Source of the DNA: Squalus acanthias
Taxonomy: Eukaryota
Assembly (NCBI GenBank): GCA_030390025.1
Contig: CM059432.1
Coordinates: 19,780,001-19,844,000 of the forward strand
Reading direction: 5' to 3'
DNA length: 64,000 nucleotides
Position 1 is the stretch's first letter; every line of letters starts with the position of its first letter. Position numbers and translations under genes: made by a program. Positions 1-31,341 of the stretch are shown piece after piece. Under the pieces are notes generated by a model. It did not search any database and was not told the DNA's origin. It saw only the letters and a list, made by a program, of their open reading frames with translations.

Positions 1-508
1 AAGGCTGCAGTTTTTGACAGTACCACGGCTTTTCTGCTTTCTGTGCCGGTGAGATTTCTGACTCCCGAGAACTGAAGGGCTGACACCTGCAGGAGGAAGT
101 TAAGGTAAGTGAAACTTTTTCCCACACTTAGCACTTACCTTACACACTTACCTCTGCACACATGCACCCATCACTCACCTGCCCACCGGACATATCGACC
201 CCTCCAACCCCTGCAGACCCATGGTCCGCCCCGATAACTTGGCGTGGTTGCCACCTGTCGGAGAGCCCACATTTCAGGCATAAAAATAGGGATTAGACAA
301 AAAACTGCCTGTTAGCAACCTGCTAACAGGCAGTTTATTGCCACTAATCGCCTTCCCGCCTCGGGGAGTCGGGTCTCAGTACAGGTCGGGTACCCGCCGC
401 CAGCGAAACTGGCATGGAGGCGGGATGGGGTCGGGACCCCCGAATCTGCAACTTTAACCCCCCACACGCCTCCAAACCCGACTTCACGGGTCATTGAAAA
501 TCCAGCCC
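1..508. mobile_element. Right part of a non-autonomous Harbinger-like element cut by the window start
   Basis: GC-rich tract ending ...tgaaaatccagccc (reverse complement GGGCTGGATTTT), the same terminal pattern as other Harbinger-type ends in this window. Confidence 0.4.
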
Positions 509-1159
509 ACCGTCTCTTTTCATGACAACTCAGGATGGGCAATAAACATATCATCGTTCGCATCCAAAGAAATAAGAAAACACACTGGGAAGCCATTATT
601 AGTCGTCAAGTTCATCTTAATTTGTTTTTTGTATAAAACATCACAAATACGGTAAATCATGGTTTTTTCTGAGGTAAATTTAAAAGCAAAAATGGTATAA
701 ACTAGGGAATAGATCTCCCACAAATACAGTCAGCAAGAACACAAATACAACTGAGGAGAAAGCTACCAAGTGATGAAGAAGCGGGTCTTTATATGTTGTC
801 ATCTGTTCCAAATTGTTAGAGCAGCTGCCTTTCTCGTATTTGTTTATTCTGAGAACTCAAAAACAATCATTTACATATTCACAGTAACAAGCACTGGAAG
901 GACTGTAGCATTATTCAAGTTTGGGCAGATGTTGTGACTGTAAGTCCTGATTTAAATGTAGAACGAAATAGAGTATTTTGGTAGCACTAGGCACTGTTGC
1001 AGAGATAAAGAAAAAAAATGTAAATACAATGAGCTACTTCCCTGTAATTCATGCAGAAGTGTATGTAAGTATGGTTTTGATTTAGCTACCTAGAGTAATG
1101 AAGGAAAACACTGTTTATTTTCCAGGGAACAAGCAAAAAATATTTACTGGAGTGTGTCT

Positions 1160-1772
1160 GAACATAAGAACATAAGAAACAGGAGCAGGAGTAGGCCAAT
1201 CGGCCCCTCGAGCCTGCTCCGCCATTCAATAAGATCATGGCTGATCCAATCTTGGCCTCAACACCACTTTCCCGTTCTCTCCCCATACCCCTTGACTCCC
1301 TTGTAGTTCAAATATCTGTCAATCTCCGCCTTGAATATATTCAGTGACTCCGCCTCCACAGCTCTCCGGGGTAGAGAATTCCAAAGATTCACGACCCTCT
1401 GAGAGAAGAAATTCCTCCTCATCTCCGTCTTAAATGGGCGACCCCTTATTCTGAAACTATGCCCCTAGTTCTAGATACCCCCACGAGGGGAAACATCCTC
1501 TCAGCATCACCCTGTCAATCCCCCTCAGAATCTTATATGTTTCAATAAGGTCACCTCTCATTCTTCTAAACTCCAATGAGTATAGGCTCAACCTGCTCAA
1601 CCTTTCGTCATACGTCAACCCCTTCATCCCAGGAATCAACCTAGTGAACCTTCTCTGTACTGCCTCCAATGCAAGTATATCCTTCCTTAAATATGGAGAC
1701 CAAAACTGTACACAGTACTCCAGGTGCGGTCTCACCAGCGCCCTGTAAAGTTGCATCCAAACTTCCCTACTT
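1160..1772 (-). mobile_element. CR1 (HER1-like) LINE, 5'-truncated 3' fragment
   Basis: ORF 1457-1783 LYRALVRPHLEYCVQFWSPY...RGDLIETYKI is a CR1 ORF2 C-terminus; 3' tail with (GAACATAA)n on +. Confidence 0.9.
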
Positions 1773-2221
1773 TTGGGCGGCATTGTTTACAAATTTCTTT
1801 GGAAATTCTTTCCGTGGAATTGTGCACCTCCCTCTTTGTAACAGCATAACATCTGACAATGTGAGTAACACCACAGATAATCTGCTATGTTTAGTAATAA
1901 AGTAATATAAACAGTGCTCTTCCAGTACTTTCCTCTAACTCAGCACTTCAAACATCTGAAAGTGTGTTACTGTGGGGTTTTTTTTATTATCAGTGCAGTG
2001 GTTTGACCAAAGGATTTGTTCTTCCTCGGTGTACAACTGTATTCCTTAAATTGTCTACCAAAGTGTTCATCTGGTTACGAGTAAAATTTAATGCCTGCAA
2101 AAAATCTGAGTGCGGCCCCCTAAACAGCAATAAACTGCTCACTGCAGTCCTCAAGCACTGTGATTGTCTAAACTGAGAGGTCGCACAACACCAGGTTATA
2201 GTCCAACAGTTTTATTTGAAA

Positions 2222-2263
2222 TCACAAGCTTTCGGAGCTATCGATTGCTCCTTCCTCAGGTGA
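2222..2263 (-). ncRNA. Minimal type I hammerhead ribozyme in the Penelope pseudo-LTR (copy 1)
   Basis: UCAC-CUGAGGA-A-GGAGC(AAUCGAUA)GCUCC-GAAA-G-CUU-GUGA: core boxes, stem II, helix I UCAC/GUGA, palindromic AAGCUU in place of stem III. Confidence 0.85.
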
Positions 2264-2595
2264 AGTAAATTAGATACAGAATCGCCAAAGCATATATAGA
2301 TAGAAAACAAAGGATGTGTACCTTACAATTGCAGACCACTAAATTAAATCATCCTGACTATCTGCCGAGGTGTGATAAAGTTAATTAAGTCAGCCAGGAA
2401 GGTACCACATCAAAGTCAATACAAGATACAACTGAGACAATGAGGTGTAGTCGCAGGGGTTCTAACGTGTCAAAAGCTGCCGTCTGTATGTAAAACGAAA
2501 AGCTTTACAAAATTTTTACTTTTTTACTGGGAACATTTTTACTTTTTTACTGGGAATCACATCTGTGAACAAGCTAACGACGACTCGAGTCCGGA

Positions 2596-5274
2596 TCACG
2601 TCATGTATCGTGACATAAACCCAAGATCCCGATTGAGACCGTCTTCATGAGTGCGGAACTTGGCTATCAGTTTCTGCTCGATGATTTTGCGTTGTCGTGT
2701 GTTTCTAAGGTTGCCTTGGAGAACGCTTACCCGCAGATCCGAGGCTGAATGTCCTTGACTGCTGAAGTGTTCCCCGACTGGGAGGTAACAAACCTGCCTG
2801 GCGATTGTTGCGCGGTGCTCGTTCATACGTTGTCTCAGTGTCTGCATGGTCTCGCCGATGTACCATGCCGCGGTGCATTCTTTCCTGCAACGTATGAGGT
2901 AGACAACGTTGGCCGAGTCACATGAGTATGTACCATGTACCTGGTGGGTAGTGTCCTCACGTGTGATGGTGGTATCTGTGTTGATGATCTGGCATGTCTT
3001 GCAGAGTTTGCCATGGCAGGGTTGTGTGGTGTCGTGGTCGCTGTTATCCTGAAAGCTGGGTAATTTGCTGCGAACGATGGTACTTCTGAGGTTAGGCGGC
3101 TGTTTGAAGGCAAGTAGTGGAGGCGTGGGGATGGCCTTAGCGAGGTGTTTGTCATCATCGATGACAGGTTGAAGGCTGCGAAGAACATGGCGTAGTTTCT
3201 CCGCTCCGGGGAAGTACTGGACGACGTAGGGTACCCTGTTGGTTGTGTCGCGTGTTTGCCTTCTGAGGAGGTCTATGCGATTTTTCGCTGTGGCCCGTCG
3301 GAACTGTCGATCGATGAGTCGAGCGTCATATCCCGTTCTTACGAGGGCGTTTTTCAGCGTCCGTAGGTGTCCATCGCGTTCCTCCTCGTCTGAGCAGATC
3401 CTGTGTATTCGCAGGGCTTGTCCATAGGGGATGGCTTCTTTAACATGGTTAGGGTGGAAGCTGGAGAAGTGGAGCATCGTGAGGTTGTCCGTGGGCTTGC
3501 GGTAGAGTGAAGTGCTGAGGTGTCCGTCTTTGATGGAGATTCGTGTGTCCAGGAATTAGACCGATTCTGAGGAGTAGTCCATGGTGAGTTTGATGGTGGG
3601 ATGGAACTTGTTTATGTTATCGTGTAGTCTTTTCAGTGATCCTTCGCCATGGGTCCAAAGGAAGAAAATGTCGTCGATGTATCTGGTGTACAGCGTTGGC
3701 TGGAGGTCCTGTGCAGCGAAGAAGTCTTGCTCGAACTTGTGCATGATGATGTTGGCGTATTGGGGTGCGAATTTGGTCCCCATGGCTGTTCCGTGTGTTT
3801 GGGTAAAAAAATGGTTGTCGAAGGTGAAGACATTGTGGTCAAGGATGAAGCGGATGAGTTGTAGGATGGCGTCTGGAGATTGGCTGTTGTTGATGTTGAG
3901 TACTGAGGCTGTTGCAGCGATGCCGTCATCGTGGGGGATACTGGTGTAGAGTGCCGATACGTCCATCGTGGCAAGGAGTGTTCCTGGTTCAACTGGTCCG
4001 TGGGTGCTGAGTTTCTGTAAGAAGTCTGTAGTGTCGCGACAGAAGCTGGGGGTTCCCTGTACGATGGGTTTCAGAATGCCCTCGACGTATCCAGAGAGGT
4101 TCTCACACAGGGTTCCATTGCCTGATACGATAGGACGTCCGGGTGTGTTGGCTTTGTGTATCTTTGGGAGGCAGTAGAAGTCTCCCACGCGGGGAGTACG
4201 TGGGATGAGAGCGCGTAGGATGTTTTGAAGGTCTGGATCGAAGGTCTTGATCAGTCTATTGAGTTGGCGGGTGTGTTCTTTGGTCGGATCTGCGGGTAGC
4301 TGTCTGTAGTGTTCCTGGTTGTCCAGTTGTCGGTATGCTTCTTTACAATCGTCCGTTCTGTTCTGTATGACGATGGCTCCTCCTTTGTCCGCTGGTTTGA
4401 TGACAATGTTGCGGTTGGTCTTGAGAGCGTGGATGGCGTTGCGTTGGGCTCGGGTGACATTCTGGACTGTCTTGTGAGTGCGGCTGATGAATCTGGCGTT
4501 GATGCATCTCCTGACAGCTTGAGCATACATGTCAAGCTTGGGGCAGCGACCCTCCGGAGGGGTCCAGTTTGACCCTTTTTTCTTCGGTTGCTGCACTGTG
4601 AGTCCCTCTGTCTGCTGTTCTGGATCATTGATTGTCTCATTGGGTTTGTTGCTGACATCTTGGGATTTGTGGAAGTATTCCCGGAGCCTCATTCTCCTGA
4701 TGAATTCCTCCATGTCTGCCGCGAGACCGATGGGGTCCATTTTGGTGGTTGGGCAGAACTTGAGCCCTAGGGCGAGAACTTCGATTTCGTCTGGTTGAAG
4801 GGTATGGTCGGACAAGTTGACGATGGACTTCCCTGTGGTTGCAGCCGTGGTACCGGGGGAGGCTTGGTTGCTGCTGGTGGTGATGCCGAGTTTCTCAAGC
4901 TTCCTGTTCTTGATGCGCATGTAGGCAGCGTAGTTCCGTTGCCTCGTCTGTTTGGTGGTGTCTCGTAACTGGTCTGCTGTGTCCTGAGCACAGGCTGAGA
5001 GCATGGACTCTATCTTGGTTTCGAGGTTGTGGCGTTTGCTGTAGAGCTGGTGTACGAGATGGTTGAGGAGTGTGCGAGAGGTACGACGGCAGAGTCTCTC
5101 AGCGTAGTCTGTGTTGTATGTCGACTTGAGTGGGTTCGTGATCTGTAGTCCTTTCGGGATCTTGTCTGCTTTCTTGCATCTCTGTAGATACTTGATGTCG
5201 GTGTCGATATGCGCGATCTTCTTGGCGATTCTCTCCAATTTGAGCCGGCAGTTTGTGGTGTCGATAGTGGTCAT
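2596..5274 (-). pseudogene. Penelope-like RT + GIY-YIG ORF, full length (~892 codons) with one premature stop
   Basis: ATG at 5274 (MTTIDTT...); RT motifs TMDVSALYTSIP, GTAMG, RYIDD; Cys-rich linker CHGKLCKTC; VVYLIRC...WYIGET endonuclease; TCA>TAA at 3556-3558 relative to the other arm. Confidence 0.93.
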
Positions 5275-5361
5275 GATGCGGAGATGCCGGTGTTGGACTG
5301 GGGTGGACAAAATTGAGAGGTCGCACAACACCAGGTTATAGTCCAACAGTTTTATTTGAAA

Positions 5362-5403
5362 TCACAAGCTTTCGGAGCTATCGAGTGCTCCTTCCTCAGG
5401 TGA
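5362..5403 (-). ncRNA. Minimal type I hammerhead ribozyme in the partial 5' pseudo-LTR (copy 2)
   Basis: Same core as copy 1 with loop II ACUCGAUA; lies 3140 nt upstream of copy 1 on the same strand. Confidence 0.85.
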
Positions 5404-5482
5404 AGTAAATTAGATACAGAATCGCCATCTCGTACACCAGCTCTACAGCAAACGCCACAACCTCGAAACCAAGATAGAGTCC

Positions 5483-7891
5483 ATGCTCTCAGCCTGTGCT
5501 CAGGACACAGCAGACCAGTTACGAGACACCACCAAACAGACGAGGCAACGGAACTACGCTGCCTACATGCGCATCAAGAACAGGAAGCTTGAGAAACTCG
5601 GCATCACCACCAGCAGCAACCAAGCCTCCCCCAGTACCACGGCTGCAACCACAGGGAAGTCCATCGTCAACTTGTCCGACCATACCCTTCAACCAGACGA
5701 AATCGAAGTTCTCGCCCTAGGGCTCAAGTTCTGCCCAACCACCAAAATGGACCCCATCGGTCTCGCGGCAGACATGGAGGAATTCATCAGGAGAATGAGG
5801 CTCCGGGAATACTTCCACAAATCCCAAGATGTCAGCAACAAACCCAATGAGACAATCAATGATCCAGAACAGCAGACAGAGGGACTCACAGTGCAGCAAC
5901 CGAAGAAAAAAGAGTCAAACTGGACCCCTCCGGAGGGTCGCTGCCCCAAGCTTGACATGTATGCTCAAGCTGTCAGGAGATGCATCAACGCCAGATTCAT
6001 CAGCCGCACTCACAAGACAGTCCAGAATGTCACCCGAGCACAACGCAACGCCATCCACGCTCTCAAGACCAACCGCAACATTGTCATCAAACCAGCGGAC
6101 AAAGGAGGAGCCATCGTCATACAGAACAGAACGGACGATTGTAAAGAAGCATACCGACAACTGGACAACCAGGAACACTACAGACAGCTACCCGCAGATC
6201 CGACCAAAGAACACACCCGCCAACTCAATAGACTGATCAAGACCTTCGATCCAGACCTTCAAAACATCCTACGCGCTCTCATCCCACGTACTCCCCGCGT
6301 GGGAGACTTCTGCTGCCTCCCAAAGATACACAAAGCCAACACACCCGGACGTCCTATCGTATCAGGCAATGGAACCCTGTGTGAGAACCTCTCTGGATAC
6401 GTCGAGGGCATTCTGAAACCCATCGTACAGGGAACCCCCAGCTTCTGTCGCGACACTACAGACTTCTTACAGAAACTCAGCACCCACGGACCAGTTGAAC
6501 CAGGAACACTCCTTGCCACGATGGACGTATCGGCACTCTACACCAGTATCCCCCACGATGACGGCATCGCTGCAACAGCCTCAGTACTCAACATCAACAA
6601 CAGCCAATCTCCAGACGCCATCCTACAACTCATCCGCTTCATCCTTGACCACAATGTCTTCACCTTTGACAACCATTTTTTTACCCAAACACACGGAACA
6701 GCCAAGGGGACCAAATTCGCACCCCAATACGCCAACATCTTCATGCACAAGTTCGAGCAAGACTTCTTCGCTGCACAGGACCTCCAGCCAACGCTGTACA
6801 CCAGATACATCGACGACATTTTCTTCCTTTGGACCCATGGCGAAGGATCACTGAAAAGACTACACGATAACATAAACAAGTTCCATCCCACCATCAAACT
6901 CACCATGGACTACTCCTCAGAATCGGTCTCATTCCTGGACACACGAATCTCCATCAAAGACGGACACCTCAGCACTTCACTCTACCGCAAGCCCACGGAC
7001 AACCTCACGATGCTCCACTTCTCCAGCTTCCACCCTAACCATGTTAAAGAAGCCATCCCCTATGGACAAGCCCTGCGAATACACAGGATCTGCTCAGACG
7101 AGGAGGAACGCGATGGACACCTACGGACGCTGAAAAACGCCCTCGTAAGAACGGGATATGACGCTCGACTCATCGATCGACAGTTCCGACGGGCCACAGC
7201 GAAAAATCGCATAGACCTCCTCAGAAGGCAAACACGGGACACAACCAACAGGGTACCCTACGTCGTCCAGTACTTCCCCGGAGCGGAGAAACTACGCCAT
7301 GTTCTTCGCAGCCTTCAACATGTCATCGATGACGACAAACACCTCGCTAAGGCCATCCCCACGCCTCCACTACTTGCCTTCAAACAGCCGCCTAACCTCA
7401 GAAGTACCATCGTTCGCAGCAAATTACCCAGCTTTCAGGAGAACAGCGACCACGACACCACACAACCCTGCCATGGCAAACTCTGCAAGACATGCCAGAT
7501 CATCAACACAGATACCACCATCACACGTGAGGACACTACCCACCAGGTACATGGTACATACTCATGTGACTTGGCCAACGTTGTCTACCTCATACGTTGC
7601 AGGAAAGAATGCACCGCGACATGGTACATCGGCGAGACCATGCAGACACTGAGACAACGTATGAACGAGCACCGCGCAACAATCGCCAGGCAGGTTTGTT
7701 ACCTCCCAGTCGGGGAACACTTCAGCAGTCAAGGACATTCAGCCTCGGATCTGCGGGTAAGCGTTCTCCAAGGCAACCTTAGAAACACACGACAACGCAA
7801 AATCATCGAGCAGAAACTGATAGCCAAGTTCCGCACTCATGAAGACGGTCTCAATCGGGATCTTGGGTTTATGTCACGATACATGACGTGA
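5483..7891 (+). CDS. Penelope-like RT + GIY-YIG ORF, uninterrupted 802 aa but missing the N-terminus
   Basis: Same protein as the - arm; the copy starts ~70 codons into the ORF; GTAMG motif changed to GTAKG. Confidence 0.9.
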   Translation: MLSACAQDTADQLRDTTKQTRQRNYAAYMRIKNRKLEKLGITTSSNQASPSTTAATTGKSIVNLSDHTLQPDEIEVLALGLKFCPTTKMDPIGLAADMEEFIRRMRLREYFHKSQDVSNKPNETINDPEQQTEGLTVQQPKKKESNWTPPEGRCPKLDMYAQAVRRCINARFISRTHKTVQNVTRAQRNAIHALKTNRNIVIKPADKGGAIVIQNRTDDCKEAYRQLDNQEHYRQLPADPTKEHTRQLNRLIKTFDPDLQNILRALIPRTPRVGDFCCLPKIHKANTPGRPIVSGNGTLCENLSGYVEGILKPIVQGTPSFCRDTTDFLQKLSTHGPVEPGTLLATMDVSALYTSIPHDDGIAATASVLNINNSQSPDAILQLIRFILDHNVFTFDNHFFTQTHGTAKGTKFAPQYANIFMHKFEQDFFAAQDLQPTLYTRYIDDIFFLWTHGEGSLKRLHDNINKFHPTIKLTMDYSSESVSFLDTRISIKDGHLSTSLYRKPTDNLTMLHFSSFHPNHVKEAIPYGQALRIHRICSDEEERDGHLRTLKNALVRTGYDARLIDRQFRRATAKNRIDLLRRQTRDTTNRVPYVVQYFPGAEKLRHVLRSLQHVIDDDKHLAKAIPTPPLLAFKQPPNLRSTIVRSKLPSFQENSDHDTTQPCHGKLCKTCQIINTDTTITREDTTHQVHGTYSCDLANVVYLIRCRKECTATWYIGETMQTLRQRMNEHRATIARQVCYLPVGEHFSSQGHSASDLRVSVLQGNLRNTRQRKIIEQKLIAKFRTHEDGLNRDLGFMSRYMT

Positions 7892-8223
7892 TCCGGACTC
7901 GAGTCGTCGTTAGCTTGTTCACAGATGTGATTCCCAGTAAAAAAGTAAAAATTTTCCCAGTAAAAAAGTAATTTTTTTTTAAAGCTTTTCGTTTTACATA
8001 CAGACGGCAGCTTTTTACACGTTAGAACCCCTGCGACTACACCTCATTGTCTCAGTTGTATCTTGCTATGTCTTTGATGTGGTACCTTCCTGGCTGACTT
8101 AATTAACTTTATCACACCTCGGCAGATAGTCAGGATGATTTAATTTAGTGGTCTGCAATTGTAAAGTACACATGCTTTTTTTTCCATCTATATATGCTCT
8201 GACGATTCTGTATCCAATTTACT

Positions 8224-8261
8224 TCACCTGAGGAAGGAGCGATAGTTCCGAAAGCTTGTGA
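8224..8261 (+). ncRNA. Minimal type I hammerhead ribozyme in the 3' pseudo-LTR of the + arm (copy 3)
   Basis: UCAC-CUGAGGA-A-GGAGC(GAUA)GUUCC-GAAA-G-CUU-GUGA; AATAAA at 8267-8272 and TATATAT at 8189-8195 nearby. Confidence 0.85.
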
Positions 8262-8559
8262 TTTCAAATAAAACTGTTGGACTATAACCTGGTGTTGTGC
8301 GACCTCTCAATTTTGTCCACCCCAGTCCAACACCGGCATCTCCGCATTGTCTAAACTGCCATGAACTAAGTAAAACTTTTTTTTTTTAAGAGTTTTGGCT
8401 AACACTCAGAGAAGGAATTTACTCACTCTATCTCAAGGCATTATACAGTACATGAAGAAAAGTCTATTTTATGTAGGTAACATTAACTGCCTTTATTTTC
8501 CCCACTTCAGTCTTGTCCTTGTTTGCAGTGTGCAGCTTGATGACTGTAAGTCATTTTAA

Positions 8560-9138
8560 AAGCCATAATATACGACAGGTAAATTAAGAGCTCCAGTTCC
8601 CTCCTGGAGCGCAACAGGCAGCAGGCGGGGCGGTAGGTGAGCAGCGCTGTACAATGGGCCGGGCAGCGCATCCGTGTTGGAAGGCTCCTTCCCTCCCTTA
8701 AAGGGAAGGGCCATCGCTGCGGGCTCTGCAGGGGGAAAACTTACCTTAGCTGCAGCAGAGAGCCGGGCTAATTTTTTTTTTTCCTTTGTCTTCGCCAGCG
8801 AACACAAAGGAAAAAAAGAGAAAGAGCATTTCAGAATTTTCTTTACTTACTGCGTCCACCTCGCCTTTAAGCATCGCCCCCGAAGTGCCCGGCCTCCCGA
8901 TGAACGCCTCCTGCAACTGCCGGTGTTTTCGCCCGGCGATGCTGCAGAGGGCGGAACTGAAGTTTGGGTCCGGGGCACTACCGGGTGCAGGAGATCGTGG
9001 CGCTAGGGCTTACCGATGCCGCAAACCGGCAGGTGAATTTCGCGGGCGGCGGTAACATCGCTGCACCTGGGCGATAAGTCATTAGTGCCCCATTATCGCC
9101 ACCACCCTGGAGCCGCTAACCAACCGAATTTCTCCCCC
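8560..9138. mobile_element. Harbinger-type MITE fragment
   Basis: Ends ...ccgaatttctccccc; last ~150 nt resemble 35330-35493. Confidence 0.6.
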
Positions 9139-9399
9139 ATAATGTCAGCAACGGGTGCTTACAAGAGTTTCCAACAATATTGTTCTGCACATAAGCAAAA
9201 GTTTTTAATTAAAGATAAGGAAAGTTTAATGTGAGTAGGTTTTCTTCAAAATAGTCAGGTGTATATATAATATACGCACACACACATTCCTTAATGCTTA
9301 CAAGCAAATACATCAATTGTTCTCCTCCAACAGAAGCCTGCTGCTTAGGGTCTCTTTCACTCCATAGCTGCTTTATTGTTGTCACTGCTGGATCCCAGA

Positions 9400-9812
9400 G
9401 CAACCCCATCCACCACCTCAAACATTCACTCCCTCCACCACCGGCGTACCGTGGCTGCAGTGTGTACCATCTACAAGATGCACTGCAGCAATTCGCCAAG
9501 GCTTCTTCGGCAGCACCTCCCAAACCCGCGACCTCTTCCACCTAGAAGGACAAGGGCAGCAGGCGCATGGGAACACCACCACCGCCAAGTTCCCCTCCAA
9601 GTCACACATCATCCTGACTTGGAAATATATCGCCGCTCCTTCATCGTCGCTGGGTCAAAATCCTGGAACTCCCTCCCTAACAGCACTGTGGGAGTACCTT
9701 CACCACACGGACTGCAGCGGTTCACCACCACCTTCTCAAGGGCAATTATGGATGGGCAATAAATGCTGGCCTTGCCAGCGACGCCCACATCCCATAAACA
9801 GATTTAAAAAAA
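9400..9812 (+). mobile_element. Second LINE family (CR1/L2 group), 3' fragment
   Basis: NIHSLHHRRTVAAVCTIYKMHC...RSFIVAGSKSWNSLP; tail GGGCAATAAATGCTGGCCTTGCCAGCGACGCCCAC followed by an A-rich end; same family as 48302-49228 and 55865-58364. Confidence 0.85.
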
Positions 9813-10646
9813 TGTTTTTAATGATGGACTGAGATAGACTAATCTAGAGGCTACCTGACACTGGGAAAATACCCATCAATAAAGTATGCAGCAGCAGTCA
9901 AACAAGGAGCATCTTTGCCCAGGATTGAATGGGTCTAGATTGATGCCAAGGCCAGTTTAAAGTTACGGCTCCATTAAAATGAGTAGAGGTTCTTGGTAGC
10001 TCCTTGCCGTCGGTGGGCTGAATGTAAGCAAACCTGGAATGGTGGCTCTCCTTTTAGTCACATGGTTCGAACTGAGGTGAAATTTCACTCCACATGATAC
10101 ATCCTGAGTTATGTTTTCCAGCCGGCGGGATTATTTCTCACACTGTGTGTGACATTTCAATTTTGATATTTAAACCAGTCCTTAATACATGTAAATGCTA
10201 GTGTGCTGCTGCACACAATTTCTCTTCATTCACAACGGCATCCCACCATGTGCTCAACCTGGGTGTTAAGATTCTTCTGTAAAATTTTATTTTGGCACCA
10301 GAACGTGGAATGTTTCTGTGCAAAAAATTATAAGCCTTGCAGCAGAAGAAGAGCGGACGTGGACAGGGGCTCTTCCCATGTAAACCCAGCTCAGGGAGTG
10401 ACAACAATCTAAAGTATGCCATGGAGTCATGTACCAGGTTGTCAATTTAAAAGTAATGATGGGGGTTACTTTGAAAGTGTCCCAATTGCATTCATTTATG
10501 GTTCATTTACAAAATGAAAGATATCGGCAGGCACCAGACTGAACTGCTCACACCCGCCCTTATGCTACCAGCTGTATCCTCATACCCTTTGCTGCCAATG
10601 ACTGGTAAGAATCGTCTCTGGAGGCTCTTGGTCAACACAAAGCCAG

Positions 10647-11008
10647 ATAAGAACATAAGAAATAGGAGCAGGAGTAGGCCATTCGGCCCCTCGAGCCTGC
10701 TCCGCCATTCAATAAGATATTGGCTGATCTGATCTTGGCCTCAACTCCATTTTCCTGCCTGTTCCCCATAACCCTCGACTCCCCTGTAGCTCAAAAATCT
10801 GTCGATCTCAGCCTTGAATATATTCAATGACTTCACCTCCACAGCTCTCTGGGGTAGAGAATTCCAAAGATTCACGATGCTCTGAGAGAAGAAATTCCTC
10901 CTCATCTCCGTCTTAAATGGGCGATCCCTTATCTAGATTCCCCTACGAGGGGAAACATCCTCTCAGCATCTACCCTGTCAAGCCCCCTCAGAATCTTACA
11001 TGTTTCAA
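10647..11008 (-). mobile_element. CR1 (HER1-like) 3' fragment
   Basis: Closely similar to 1160-1550, including the tail repeat. Confidence 0.85.
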
Positions 11009-11844
11009 AGATGCACAACTGTGTCATCATCTGTGTCATTTCTGTAACCACCCTCCAACATAAAGATACAAATTCTCTTCCTCCACCTCTTTCTAGGTTA
11101 ACAGATTATCATTTTAGGTAACAGCCAACGTGCTGGCCGTACATCTGTCAAATCGGTGGCAGGCATATTCATCTCCTCCCCCAGTGATTAGCAACAGAAG
11201 CATCACACAGCTGCCCAATATCACGGCACTGTTGCATTTCACAAAGGAGAAGTGCTATTGGTGGCAGCCATGTGGCCATCTGAGCAAGAGATCCCTGCAC
11301 CGCCTCTGAGATCACCGATTGCTCAGTCTCACCTACGCGTTTGATGCTACCTCCTCAAATCCACCATAATGTGCTAAACTGTTTGCATACGTCGGAGCTG
11401 TGAAGTGCTATCTTGTTCTGGGCTACCGGCTGTGTTGTCCTCGGCACACAAATGACAAGGTCTTGCAGGTACACAGCATTGAACGTGGTCACCAGCTCTT
11501 AACAGGCATGGTGCATTGCTGTCTTCTTTGGAGGCTGCCCTGGATGGGCAGACATCACAAGCCTCCTCCTTGCAGCATCTCATGCAGCAGCTGCTCCCAC
11601 TTCTCATCGATTAAACAGGATGTCCAGGTGCCAACCTGCTTCAATAGGAAACAGATTCCATTCCCGGCATTGACATTTATTTGGCCGCCACTGGTTTTTG
11701 CCCCATAAATCTTTGTAAAGGCTTTTTTAAAAATTAACATATTTACAGCCTTTCTACAGGAAGTAAAATCAATTTTGTAAGATTTAAACTGTTTTTGTTG
11801 TCATATATGTATCTATTTGTCTTTCAGTGGGCACATCCCACTTT

Positions 11845-13139
11845 TTGATAGATATTAACGACCTGGACTTGGGTATAGAGGGCATAATTTCAAAGTTTGC
11901 AGATGACACGAAATTCAAAAATGCAGTAAACAGTGAGGAGGATAGTAATAGGCCTCAGGAGGACATAGACAGACTGGTAAAATAGGCAGATAAAATTTAA
12001 TGCAGAGAAGTGTGAAGTGATTTTGGTAGGAAGAACGAGGAGAGGCAATCTACATCGGATTACATAGGATATACGGCACAGAAACAGGTCATTCGGTCCA
12101 ACCAGTCCATGCTGGCATTTATGCGTCACTCGAGCCTCCTCCCGTCTTTCCTCGTCTAACTCTATCAGCATAACCCTCTATTCCCTTTTCCCTCATTTGC
12201 TTATCTAGCCTCCCCTTAAATGCATCCATACTATTCGCTTCAACCACTCCCTGTGGTAGCGAGTTCCACATTCTCACCACTCTCTGGGTAAAGAAGTTGC
12301 TTCTGAATTCCCTGTTGGATTTCTTGGTGACGATCTTATATTGATGGCCTCTAGTTTTGCACTTCCCCACAAGTGGAAACACTCTTTCTGTATCTACTCT
12401 GTCAAAACCTTTCATAATTTTAAAGACCTCTATTAGGTCACCCCGGTACAATTTTAAAGGGTGTTCAGGAACAGAGACTCCTGGGGGTGTACATACACAA
12501 ATCTCTGAGGTGGCAGGGCAAGTTGGGAAGGCTGATAAAAAGGTATACAGGATCCTTGGCTTTATAAATAGGCATAGAGTACAAAAGCAAGGGAGTTGGG
12601 CTAAACCTCTAAAAAAAAACATTGGTTAGGCCCCAGCTGGACTATTGTGTCCAATTCTGGGCAGTACACTTTAGGAAGGATATCAAGGCCTTAGAGAGGA
12701 TGTCGAGATGATTTACTGGAATGGTGCCGGGGGTGAAAGACTTCAGTTATGTGGAGAGACTAGAGAAACTGGGATTGTTCTCTTTAGAGCAGAGAAGGTT
12801 AAGGGGAGATTTGATAGAGGTGTTCAAAATCAGGAACTGTTTTCAGAGAGTAAATAAGAAAAAACATTCCAGTGTTTTTAACTAAAGGCGACATGAGGAA
12901 AAAAAAATTTACGCAGCGATTTGTTGTGATCGGGACTGCACTGCCTGAAAGGGTGATGGAAACAGATTCAATAGTAACTTTTAAAAGGGAATTCGATAAA
13001 TACTTGAAGGGGAAAACAATTGCAGGCCTTATGAGGAAAGAGCAGGGGAATGGGACTAACTGGATCGCTCTTTCAAAGAGCCAGCACAGGCACTATGGGC
13101 CGAATGGCCTCCTTCTGTGCTGCATCATTCTATGATCCC
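11845..13139 (+). mobile_element. CR1 fragment interrupted by an antisense CR1 3' end
   Basis: DINDLD...KFADDTK region at 11845-12049 resumes at ~12445 and runs to a CR1 tail at ~13139. Confidence 0.8.
12050..12444 (-). mobile_element. CR1 3' fragment nested in CR1
   Basis: GDLIEVFKIMKGFDRV...FFTQRVVRMWNSLP on the - strand. Confidence 0.85.
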
Positions 13140-19675: not shown

Positions 19676-20813
19676 GAGATAAAAACAGAAAATGCTGGAA
19701 ATACTCAGCAGGTCAGGCAGCATCTGTCGAGAGAGAAACAGAGTTAACGTTTCAGGTCGATGACTCTTCGTCAGAACTGGAAAAAGTTGGAGATGTAAAA
19801 GACTTTTAAGCAAGTGTAGGGGCAGGGAGAGGGGGGAGGAGAGGAAAGAACAAAAGGGAAGGTCTGTGATAGGATGGAAGGCAGGAGTGATTAAGAGACA
19901 AAAGGGATGATGGTGCAAGGCAAAAGGAGATGGTAATGGGACAAGTTAAGAAACAAAAGATGACTCTAGATGAAGTGTAAATGGCAATGGCAGAATCATC
20001 AACAGCTGCCATGTGAAAAAAAATAGGGGCAGAGGTTATGGTCTGAAATTGTTGAACTCGATGTTGAGTCCAGAAGGCTGTAAAGTGCCTAATCGAAAGA
20101 TGAGGTGCTGTTCCTCGAGCTTACATTGAGCTTCATTGGAACAGTGTAAGAGGCCAAAGACGGAGAGATCAGAGTGGGAGTGGAGCGGAGAATTAAAGTG
20201 ACAGGCGACCGGAAGCTCGGGTCACCCTTACGGACTGAATGGAGGTGTTCCGCAAAGCGGTCACCCAATCTGCGTTTGGTCTCCCCAATGTAGAGGAGAC
20301 CGCATCGTGAGCAGTGAATACAGTATACTAAATTGCAAGAAGTACAAGTAAATCGCTGTTTCACCTGGAAGAAGTGTTTGGGGCCCTGGACAGTGGGAAG
20401 GGAGGAGGTAAAAGGGCAGGCGTTACATCTCCTGCGCTTGCACAGGAAGGTGCCGGGCGAAGGGGAAGGGGTGTTGGGGGTGATAGAGGAGTGGACCAGG
20501 GTGTCGCTGAGGGAGCAGTCCCTTCGGAATGCTGGGAGGGGAGGTGAGGGGAAGATGTGTTTGGTGGTGGGATCACGCTGGAGGTAGCGGAAATGGCGGA
20601 GGATGATCCGTTGAATGTGGAGGCTGGTGGGGTAAAAGGTGAGGACAAGGGGAACCCTATCGTGGTTCCGGGAGGGAGGGGTAGGGGTGAGAGCAGAAGT
20701 GTGGGAAATAGAATGGACACGGTCAAGGGCCGTGTCAACCACGGTACAGGGGAATCGTCAGAACAGATGCGGCGGAGACGGAGAAACTGGGAGAATGGAA
20801 TAGAGTCCTTACA
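19676..20813 (-). mobile_element. Penelope-like family 2, truncated: RT-thumb remnant, GIY-YIG and 3' pseudo-LTR
   Basis: ORF 20089-20742 RVPLVLTF...CKRRRCNAC...LVYCIHCSRCGLLYIGETKRRL; KDSIPFSQFLRLRRICS at ~20760-20810. Confidence 0.9.
19742..19778 (-). ncRNA. Minimal hammerhead ribozyme, Penelope family 2
   Basis: AGUU-CUGACGA-AGAGUC(AUC)GACCU-GAAA-C-GUU-AACU with palindromic AACGUU. Confidence 0.8.
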
Positions 20814-28872: not shown

Positions 28873-31341
28873 GTGTGCGCTTGCAAGCTTCTTGCCTCAA
28901 CTGAAATCTATAGCAACTGGATGGGGACCATTTACATCCTCTCATCCTGGTCGTTGGATTCGGAGGAAGAGCAGCCGCGGCAGCACCACAACCAGCCACA
29001 ACAGCAGCACCAACACCTGGAGCCCAGAAGAGCGTGTGGACACTCCTTACCAGTTGCTGTCAAAGTCACTACCGCACTCAACTTCTTTGCTTCGGGCTCC
29101 CTCCAGGGATCAGCTGCAGACATCAGCGGCATCTCCCAGTCGGCCACACACACCTGCATCACGCAGGTCACCGATGACCTCTTTGCAAAGGCGCACAACT
29201 ACATCCACTTCTCCACGGATGGCCCAAGTGTGATAGCGTGCGTGGTTGGTTTTGCCAATATGACAGGCTTGCCAATGGTGCAGGGTGTCATAGACAGCAT
29301 ACATGTAGCCATTAGTGCCCCCTATCACAACCCAGCTGTATTTGTCAACTGCAAGGGATTCCACTCCCTGAACGTCCAGCTGGTGTGTAACCACAGGAAG
29401 ATCATCACGCATGTTTGCGCCAAGTACCCTGGCAGTTGCCATGACTCCTTCATCCTGCGCCAGTCTACTGTGCCTCAGCCCTGCCATCCGCCAACCCAAC
29501 TTTCCGGATGGCTTCTTGGTGACAAGGGCTATCCCCTGAAAAAGTGGCTTATGACGACTTCTTCTTCTTAGGCAGTCCCTCGGAACCAAGGATGACTTGC
29601 TTCCACATTAAAAATGAGTTCTCAGGTGACTGATGAGTTCAATGCGGGACCTACAGTCTCTGTCACAGGTGGGGCAGACGGTGGTTGAAGGGGCGGGTGG
29701 GTGGGGTTCTTGGGTTGAGGTGCGCTCCTTGCGCTTGGCTTCCGCTTGCTCCCGGCGAAGAGACTCGAGGTGTTCGGCGCCTTCCCGGATGCTTCTCCTC
29801 CACTTTGTGCGGTCTTGGGCCAGGGATTCCCAGGTGTCGGTGGGGATGTTACACTTTTTCAAGGAGGCTTTGAGGGTGTCCTTGAAGCGTTTCCTCTGCC
29901 CACCTGGGGCTCTCTTGCCGTGCCGGAACTCCGAGCAGAGCGCTTGTTTTGGGAATCTCGTATCAGGCATGCGGACAATGTGACCCGTCCATCGGAGCTG
30001 ATCGAGTGCGGTCAAAGCTTCGGTGCTGGGGATGTTGGCCTGAGCAAGAACACTGACGTTGGTGCGCCTATCCTGCCAATGGATTTGCAGGATCTTGCGG
30101 AGGCAGCATTGGTGGTACCTCTCCAGTGCTTTGAGGTGCCTGCTGTACATGGTCCATGTCTCTGAGGCATACAGCAGGGTGGGTATCACTGCTGCTCTGT
30201 AGACCATGAGCTTAGTGCCGGGTTTGAGGTCCTGGTCTTCAAACACTCTCTTCCTCAGGCGACCGAAGGCTGCACTGGCACACTGAAGGCGGTGTTGGAC
30301 TTCGTCGTCTGCCCTTGTTGACAGTAGGCTCCCGAGGTATGGAAAGTGGTCCACATTGTCCAAGGCCTTGTCGTGGATTTTGATAATCGGGGGGCAGTAC
30401 TGTGTGGTGGGGGCAGGTTGGTAGAGGACTTTTGTCTTACGGATGTTTAGTGTAAGGCCCATGCTCTTGTACGCTTCGGTGAAGGTGTTGACGATGGTTT
30501 GGAGTTCGACCTCCGAGTGTGCGCAGACGCAAGCGTCGTCTGCATACTGTAATTCGACGACAGAGGATGGGACGACCTTGGATCTGGACTGGAGGTGACG
30601 GAGGTTGAACAGTTTCCCGTTTGTTCTGTAAATTAGCTCCACTCTAGCGGGGTGCTTACTGAGAGTGAGATGAAAGCATTGCAGCAAGGAAGATCGAGAA
30701 GAGCGTTGGTGCGATGACACAGCCTTGCTTGACCCCGGTTCGTACATGAATTGGGTCTGTGGTGGAACCGTTGGTCAGGATCACGGCTTGCATGTCATCG
30801 TGAAGCTGGCGGAGGGTGGTGACAAACTTTTGAGGGCAGCCGAATTTGCGGAGGACACTCCATAATCCCTCACGGTTGACAGTGTCGAAGGCCTTTGTGA
30901 GATCAAAGAAGGCCATGTCTTTGTTCTTATGACACCGATGAGGAGGCCATCAACCGATGCTGATGAGCGGTACAATGTGAGTCACATATCCACCAGAAGC
31001 ATCATCAAGCAAACCATCGGCTTGCTCAAAATGCGCTTCCGGTGCCTAGACAGATCTGGTGGAGCCTTGCAGTATGCACCAGCAGGGTGTCAAGAATCGT
31101 CGTGGTCTGCTGTGCCCGGCACAACATCGCACAGCAGCGCGGCTTAGTGCTGCTGGATGAACATGTGGCTCAGCACACAGCCTCCTCGGAGAAAGAGGAA
31201 GAGGAAGAGAGCGAGGAGGAGGATGAGGATGAGGACGGGGAGCGACGCCTTGTTGGTCCGCATCTGGCCAATCCAGCAGCAGGCGACCACATTGCTGGCT
31301 GTCAGGCAAGGGATACACTCATCCATGCCAGATTCGCATAA
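28873..31341 (+). pseudogene. Harbinger (HARBI1-like) DDE transposase, interrupted by RTE and frameshifted
   Basis: [58 protein letters not shown]...IGLLKMRFRCLD, acidic C-terminal tail. Confidence 0.92.
29556..30925 (-). mobile_element. RTE-clade LINE, 5'-truncated
   Basis: FFDLTKAFDTV, GVKQGCVIAPTLF, LQYADD, C-terminal CPTC...HLRTH; (GAA)n tail; TSD CTTATGAC at 29548-29555 and 30926-30933. Confidence 0.93.

What the first reader, a model, noticed from the sequence alone, without database searches (positions are those of the whole stretch)
2222..5403. Two same-strand minimal hammerheads bracket the full Penelope ORF and could release a 3140-nt unit RNA
Seen: intact CUGAGGA/GAAA cores at 5362-5403 and 2222-2263 (-), each with a 4-bp helix I and stem III reduced to palindromic AAGCUU. 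Known: minimal Penelope hammerheads of this kind cleave efficiently mainly as dimers. Inference: the two copies could pair and cut after CUU (5366/5365 and 2226/2225). This would free a monomer RNA containing the whole ORF from a host read-through transcript without needing its own promoter, possibly as a circle.
Basis: partly seen in the sequence, partly recalled or inferred. Interest (0 to 1): 0.75.

Follow-up and report, generated by a model that had tools for sequence, protein, structure and literature searches.

The report
Dead Penelope copy with ordinary hammerheads
The two ribozyme motifs are real, but they are the standard end repeats of a very abundant Penelope-type jumping gene; this copy has a stop codon in its gene and a mirror-image second arm that would mask the motifs, and its relatives in the genome were copied straight across the predicted cut site, so a released linear 3,140-base RNA is unlikely to be the working template and the circle idea, already published, stays untested.

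Summary
Both minimal hammerheads are present as described, 3,140 nt apart. Family variants show covariation in stems I and II. The ORF has a private stop (3558-3556). A third hammerhead (8224-8261, +) lies in an inverted second arm. The whole 2174-8347 block is one standard two-armed insertion with a 12-13-bp target duplication and a 38-nt tail. The family has over 53,000 tail copies. Copies neither end nor start at the predicted cut: 96 of 97 sampled arms and 3,878 of 3,944 haplotype-matched copies cross it, so a cut linear monomer is not the usual template. The repeat carries its own TATA/Inr-like promoter, and stub copies start at that Inr. This copy's upstream repeat lacks the TATA, and host read-through would form a 2.8-kb hairpin over both motifs. 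Cleavage from precursors and circularisation were proposed in 2014 (PMC4209133); in vitro, cleavage was dispensable (PMC11167929). Upstream repeats are rebuilt from each copy's own 3' end, which fits a circle or template jumps; unresolved. No usable RNA reads. The scan noted similar cases before, in this genome and others.

The parts
2163..2175 (+). Left copy of the target-site duplication ATTGTCTAAACTG (last bases shared with the element end)
2174..5427 (-). Left arm: one 3140-nt unit plus terminal redundancy (61 nt upstream of the first predicted cut, about 52 nt beyond the second)
2222..2263 (-). Downstream minimal type I hammerhead; predicted cut 2226/2225
2266..2298 (-). TATA-like box (TATATAT 2298-2292) and Inr-like A (2266, TTACTTC) of the downstream repeat, 32 nt apart
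   Evidence: sequence; family starts at the Inr A
2596..5274 (-). Neptune-type RT + GIY-YIG ORF (892 codons in intact relatives), interrupted here by TAA at 3558-3556
3556..3558 (-). Premature stop codon, nearly private to this copy
5275..5365 (-). 91-nt leader from predicted cut to ATG; holds AATAAA (5356-5351) and the two sites where family copies end (+46..68 and +90..102)
5362..5403 (-). Upstream minimal hammerhead; predicted cut 5366/5365; one loop-II change found in only 4 places genome-wide (against 3,944 for the other allele)
5406..5427 (-). Remnant of upstream repeat: Inr-like A at 5406 kept, TATA box lost (truncated 5 nt short of it)
5425..8347 (+). Inverted, 5'-truncated second arm (starts about 71 codons into the ORF; its frame is open to 7891), joined head-to-head through a 3-nt overlap
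8224..8261 (+). Third minimal hammerhead (4-nt loop II, one G-U pair); predicted cut 8257/8258
8310..8347 (+). 38-nt 'tail' present on the right arm only
8346..8358 (+). Right copy of the target-site duplication

Best explanation
2174-8347 is one two-armed insertion of a young, very abundant Neptune-type Penelope-like retrotransposon whose left arm is now broken by a stop codon, and the two same-strand hammerheads are its end repeat copied twice, likely from an RNA that was still uncut at the ribozyme site. Steps. (1) Inferred: an intact donor is transcribed from a TATA/Inr promoter in its upstream repeat, starting 3 nt before hammerhead stem I and running through the ORF, the second hammerhead and the tail. 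(2) Inferred from PMC11167929 plus the genomic footprint shown here: the RT-endonuclease nicks both target strands about 12 bp apart and starts two cDNAs inside the RNA, about 52-60 and about 90-96 nt downstream of the ribozyme site. (3) Shown: both cDNAs run across the scissile bond. (4) Inferred: long cDNAs re-enter the 3' repeat of the same RNA by a homology jump, rebuilding a partial upstream repeat, and the two cDNAs join head-to-head. (5) Inferred: the ribozyme is under selection in active lineages but cuts slowly or late, perhaps with protein help, as a regulatory or RNA-turnover step and not as the maker of the template. This copy likely yields neither protein nor a clean unit RNA.
For: Target duplication of 12-13 bp, and arms ending at +52 and +90. 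28 of 29 two-armed insertions in a positional sample have one short and one long end, and 25 of 29 a duplication of 7 bp or more. 96 of 97 arms cross the cut 5'-ward. Genome counts: 37,849 of 43,971 copies extend 8 nt across the cut, against 41,718 for a control extension downstream. 3,878 of 3,944 copies continue 10 nt past the ribozyme on its 3' side. Starts at the Inr A with a preceding G: 555, against 187 one base upstream. All 30 inspected are true 5' ends that still hold an uncut hammerhead. CX4CXXC linker, DKG, YIDD and VVY-YIG motifs; RVT_1 above its cut-off, GIY-YIG just under. The same architecture is described in PMC3846280 and PMC8557442. PMC11167929 found ribozyme mutants inserted normally in vitro, and no RNA-seq ends at the cut. 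PMC2377424 shows an internal pLTR promoter in Drosophila Penelope.
Against: Only 1 of 53 long arms that reach the Inr stops there; about 2-5 would be expected if each met a capped end at the 4-10% rate seen for all arms, a small lean towards a circle. Upstream repeats match the copy's own 3' end (0-2 mismatches in 26 of 27) with 27 different breakpoints. Three multi-unit arrays are each internally uniform but of different haplotypes. Rolling-circle copying predicts all of this without extra jumps. The conserved core and covarying stems show that cleavage competence is selected. The cap signal is modest (about 3-fold), and most of the G's can be explained as microhomology. No RNA data.
Confidence: 0.6

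Rival explanations
1. In active donors both hammerheads cut as a dimer and the 3.1-kb unit is ligated into a circle. Long copies, partial tandems and arrays are more-than-one-lap cDNAs of that circle, while short stubs come from uncut capped RNA. This is the 2014 model and the reader's 'possibly as a circle', applied to the family and not to this dead copy.
For: Upstream repeats equal the copy's own 3' haplotype with ever-different breakpoints. Within-locus tandem pairs show 88 differences in 25,862 nt, against about 607 expected from between-locus medians. Arrays reach four or more units with 0-3 differences. 52 of 53 long arms pass the Inr. Stems covary.
Against: Every one of these patterns also follows from homology jumps on a terminally redundant linear RNA, or from transcripts of uniform arrays. 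The Inr deficit is small (1 seen, about 2-5 expected). Cleavage was dispensable in vitro and no RNA ends were found at the cut in anole (PMC11167929). In vitro activity of minimal PLE hammerheads is low even as dimers (PMC4209133). A capless circle needs another route to translation (inference).
Confidence: 0.33
2. One reading: at this locus a host read-through transcript is cut at both hammerheads, and a free linear monomer with the whole ORF is the functional RNA.
For: Both cores are intact, and the upstream repeat lacks the TATA box, so any transcript here may well depend on read-through.
Against: Stop at 3558-3556. The antisense second arm would pair with both ribozymes. In the family 1 of 97 and 1 of 70 arms begin within a few bases of the cut, and 98.3% continue past it on the 3' side. 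The sites where copying starts lie only 52-96 nt from the 5' end of such a monomer, so it could template only stubs ending at +1, which are nearly absent.
Confidence: 0.05

Closest known systems
Minimal type I hammerheads in pLTRs of metazoan Penelope-like elements (Cervera and de la Pena 2014, PMC4209133; Lunse et al. 2016 seen only as cited in PMC6765202)
   Same: 4-bp helix I, extra base after the CUGANGA box, G-C at the base of helix II, palindromic remnant of helix III, tandem copies about 3 kb apart around the ORF, inverted pairs 100-700 bp apart, many variant families per genome; self-scission and circle already proposed there
   Different: Helix II is 5 bp (7-8 bp in the Schistosoma examples); this family's sequence and genome-wide counts are not in the parts read; cleavage not tested here
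EN+ PLE insertions with partial tandem, inverted 5'-truncated copy, tail and target duplication (PMC8557442 Fig. 2; Pen2a_Av in PMC3846280)
   Same: Two direct repeats plus an inverted copy, a 30-40-nt tail on one end only, TATA and Inr-like motifs in the repeat; Pen2a_Av also has an in-frame stop
   Different: Target duplication of 12-13 bp (8-10 bp in the rotifer cases); the inverted arm is 2.9 kb, nearly a whole unit
Anolis Poseidon PAc (Frangieh et al. 2024, PMC11167929)
   Same: Two end positions about 38 nt apart downstream of the ribozyme, matching two internal RT starts; both target strands used; no sign that the ribozyme site delimits the template
   Different: In PAc the ribozyme overlaps the ORF start and RT starts about 111-118 nt into the ORF. 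Here the ribozyme lies 92 nt upstream of the ATG, the ends flank the last 40 nt of the leader, and the protein has the Neptune/Nematis linker
Non-LTR retrozymes (seen in the introduction of 10.64898/2026.07.22.740005 and in search listings)
   Same: Tandem type I hammerheads delimiting a unit
   Different: Retrozymes are short, non-coding and have documented circles; this unit is a 3.1-kb coding PLE with no circle shown

Membership tests
EN+ Penelope-like element | Single ORF with RT followed by GIY-YIG endonuclease | tested here: met
   RVT_1 36.3 bits (cut-off 29.6); GIY-YIG E 5e-4, 20.6 bits, under the 22.6 cut-off; VVY-YIG, DKG, YIDD motifs. Open in relatives, broken in this copy
EN+ Penelope-like element | pLTR from partial tandem, optional inverted copy, 30-40-nt tail at one end | tested here: met
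Neptune/Nematis clade | CX2-5CXXC linker between RT and EN (PMC8557442) | tested here: met
   CHGKLCKTC
Neptune/Nematis clade | RT phylogeny groups with Neptune | not tested
   No reference PLE proteins were fetched; the clade label rests on the linker motif only
Minimal PLE hammerhead | CUGANGA / GAAA / UH core with helices I and II | tested here: met
   position 7 varies (G, C, U, A), a U4C variant occurs, cut base U or C
Minimal PLE hammerhead | Palindromic helix III remnant allowing a dimer | tested here: met
   AAGCU invariant in all 26 aligned variants; note the collecting pattern required GAAA
Minimal PLE hammerhead | Self-cleavage as dimer | not testable with these tools
   Needs an assay; cofolding gave a loop II/stem II duplex, not the stem III dimer
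Rfam hammerhead families | Covariance-model hit | tested here: not met
   No hammerhead family at E<=10 in 1-12000
Retrozyme / circular-RNA retroelement | Circular monomer RNA accumulates | tested here: inconclusive
   The only raw-read run laid 0 reads; the other three are contigs not shown to be RNA; genomic footprints fit circle or jumps
Retrozyme / circular-RNA retroelement | Short non-coding unit | tested here: not met
   3140-nt unit with an 892-codon ORF in relatives

The most novel reading that the evidence does not exclude
The several hundred near-identical full-length copies of this family are a genomic record of rolling-circle reverse transcription of a ribozyme-closed 3.1-kb coding circle, which rebuilds the element's promoter at every insertion. 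That would answer how Penelope pseudo-LTRs regenerate. The young, high-copy family (345 exact ORF-start matches, 24 of 37 sampled ORFs open) would be a ready test system.
Probability: 0.3. Interest if true: 0.65.

Novelty: new member of a known kind. Interest (0 to 1): 0.22.

Why it matters
The locus itself matters little: it is a broken copy of a known kind of element, and the proposed mechanism is in print. The family statistics are the useful part. They exclude a cut linear monomer as the usual template, place the RNA start just ahead of the ribozyme, and show that upstream repeats are rebuilt from each copy's own 3' end. That narrows the open question of pseudo-LTR regeneration (stated as open in PMC2377424) to circle versus template jump, and offers a young family with many open ORFs in which to decide it.

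Tried and rejected
Rfam scan: no hammerhead hit. A 60-base DNA search of the leader returned nothing, because common words are skipped; exact patterns were used instead. RNA evidence: no RNA holder listed. The one raw-read run laid 0 reads and the three contig sets cannot show ends; not used for or against. Idea that -61 is the transcription start: rejected, because the pile-up came from a query ending there and the positional sample peaks at -31 to -45. Idea that the loop-II difference between the two hammerheads shows two templates: rejected, 4 against 3,944 copies, so a late point change. Apparent shared differences in L031, L050 and L067 were not followed up; at the polymorphic sites each differs from its partner at only one to three sites. 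Alignment A1 misaligned the three second-family rows, so one search is superseded (26 rows). The target-duplication part had an offset error and crashed; replace them. The genome-wide count of G-preceded starts among ORF-bearing arms was not obtained; a 70-arm sample stands in and is inconclusive (identical 600-nt contexts were collapsed, so n counts distinct sequences). Lunse et al. 2016 is not held. No host gene was looked for in the window, so read-through transcription is neither shown nor excluded. Supplements of the papers were not read and may hold this family's ribozyme.

Full report
OBSERVATION. On the minus strand both motifs read UCAC CUGAGGA A GGAGC (8-nt loop) GCUCC GAAA GC U U GUGA, at 5403-5362 and 2263-2222. 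They are 3140 nt apart, and their centroid folds are helices I and II. A minimal descriptor finds 5 sites in the window and none in 100 Markov resamples. Rfam returns no hammerhead at E<=10 over 1-12000. Among loci L031-L187 a core-based pattern collected 211 copies of 42 types, some loci fetched twice. I aligned 26 variants (three window copies and 23 locus types): 98.7% of 234 stem cells pair, 2 of 9 pairs change on both sides, and slid controls pair 17-49%. The rows are related and were collected by their core, so this supports selection on the fold without proving it.

The ORF from ATG 5274 ends at TAA 3558-3556, and a second open frame carries the rest. Of 37 other loci covering the site, 36 lack the stop. 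Of 37 stretches chosen for a perfect match to the ORF start, 24 have an open 891-892-aa ORF. Upstream lies an inverted arm, 5425-8347, 98.6% identical over 2906 nt, with a third hammerhead at 8224-8261. The block is bounded by ATTGTCTAAACTG at 2163 and 8346. With u counted from the predicted cut (5365 = +1), the left arm ends near +52 and the right at +90. In a positional sample from the first 4 Mb of contig C1, 28 of 29 two-armed insertions have one short and one long end, and 25 of 29 have a duplication of 7 bp or more, mostly 12-13. This is the partial tandem, inverted copy and one-sided tail described in PMC8557442 (passages) and PMC3846280 (passages). The protein has RVT_1 above its cut-off, a GIY-YIG hit just under it, and a CX4CXXC linker that PMC8557442 assigns to Neptune and Nematis. 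No tree was built.

DO COPIES RESPECT THE CUT? The family is large: 53,406 exact matches to a 27-mer of the leader and 345 to the ORF start. Of 43,971 copies with +1..+23, 37,849 (86%) also have the 8 nt before the cut; a control extension of 8 nt downstream keeps 41,718 (95%). The neighbouring step +10 to +1 loses more (55,648 to 41,718), partly through subfamily variants. From the other side, 3,878 of 3,944 copies with the ribozyme's 5' part continue 10 nt further across the cut. In the positional sample 96 of 97 arms extend 5' of the cut and one starts at +3; 3' ends fall at +46..68 (58 arms), at +90..102 (38 arms), or run on (1). Of 70 distinct long ORF-bearing arms, 1 starts at the cut. 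A cut linear monomer carries the copying start sites only near its 5' end and would leave stubs ending at +1. These are nearly absent, so the template is continuous across the scissile bond.

PROMOTER. The repeat has TATATAT 32 nt ahead of an Inr-like TTACTTC whose A lies 3 nt before helix I (2298-2292 and 2266). All 30 G-preceded loci inspected are true 5' ends with an uncut hammerhead. The G lies within the partner arm in 13 and within the target duplication in 3, outside both in 4, and is unresolved in 10. This fits copying to a capped end at the Inr, modestly. PMC2377424 (abstract, sections 16 and 18) shows an internal pLTR promoter in Drosophila Penelope and calls pLTR regeneration unexplained. 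In this copy the upstream repeat starts at 5427, keeps the Inr (5406) and lacks the TATA. A minus-strand read-through would first make the antisense of the right arm, predicted to pair with the two repeats at -282 and -197 kcal/mol, against -4.3 for the AAGCUU self-duplex.

CIRCLE OR JUMP. Of 43 ORF-start rows examined, 27 had a scorable upstream repeat. 26 of these match their own 3' end with 0-2 mismatches (one has 13 in 675), and all 27 breakpoints differ, from -48 to -1650. The other rows: 9 lacked the downstream ribozyme in the fetched stretch, 4 began in the leader, and 3 ran into arrays. Within-locus tandem pairs differ at 88 of 25,862 nt, against about 607 expected between loci (35 pairs, some from separate insertions). 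Three arrays are each uniform but differ from one another. So the upstream repeat is rebuilt at each insertion from the copy's own 3' sequence. A circle closed at the ribozyme does this, and so does a homology jump on a terminally redundant uncut RNA. Of 53 long arms that reach the Inr, 1 stops there, where about 2-5 would be expected from the rate in all arms: a lean towards the circle, not a result. No RNA data could be brought to bear.

LITERATURE. PMC4209133 (parts 1-3 of 4 read) describes these minimal ribozymes in pLTRs about 3 kb apart, low activity even as dimers and trimers, and proposes self-scission from precursors and circular templates. PMC6765202 (passages) repeats the model. PMC11167929 (parts 1-2 of 4) shows two internal RT starts that bound the tail, protein-assisted cleavage, normal insertion with dead ribozymes, and no RNA-seq ends at the cut. 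PMC8557442 notes abundant PLE clades without canonical hammerheads. The preprint 10.64898/2026.07.22.740005 was read in part 1 of 5 only. Four literature searches were run; I make no claim that this family is absent from print.

VERDICT. The motifs are real, the element type and architecture are known, the hypothesis is published, and this copy is broken. The release-of-a-linear-monomer reading is contradicted by the family's footprints. The circle remains a live but untested rival (0.33) to uncut RNA with jumps (0.6). Interest 0.22.

Noticed in passing
window 2174-5427 versus 5425-8347: The two arms share four ORF alleles seen in none of 36-48 other loci, yet differ at about 15 family-polymorphic sites in the last 310 nt before the ribozyme, including its loop II. 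This suggests a template switch between two RNAs during one insertion, or later conversion; most two-armed copies sampled have near-identical arms.
   Followed up: partly
window 35694 (-), 19774 (-), 42567 (+): A second minimal-hammerhead family (stem I AGUU/AACU, palindrome AACGUU or AACAUU) in another repeat; a GIY-YIG-bearing fragment lies at 20089-20757 (-).
   Followed up: no
L132 (G000:C1:2359900-2366600) and window 5425: An independent insertion of another haplotype has its inverted arm ending at the same ORF position as in the window, suggesting a truncation hot spot.
   Followed up: no
L038, L209, L227, L231, L247: 14 of 70 long ORF-bearing arms start inside the leader, five of them at +29 to +32; this could mark RT running into its own start after one lap, or a structure block.
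   Followed up: no
window 5356-5351 and 2216-2211 (-): AATAAA lies 10 nt after each predicted cut and upstream of both copying start sites, so templates must escape polyadenylation there.
   Followed up: no
L048-L050 (G000:C2:211.21-211.23 Mb): Array of four full 3138-nt units plus partial units with 0-3 differences between compared units and at least one open ORF.
   Followed up: partly
window 29608-30774 (-): 388-aa open frame that looks like the C-terminal part of a LINE reverse transcriptase (label recalled, no call); many other LINE-like fragments fill the window.
   Followed up: no
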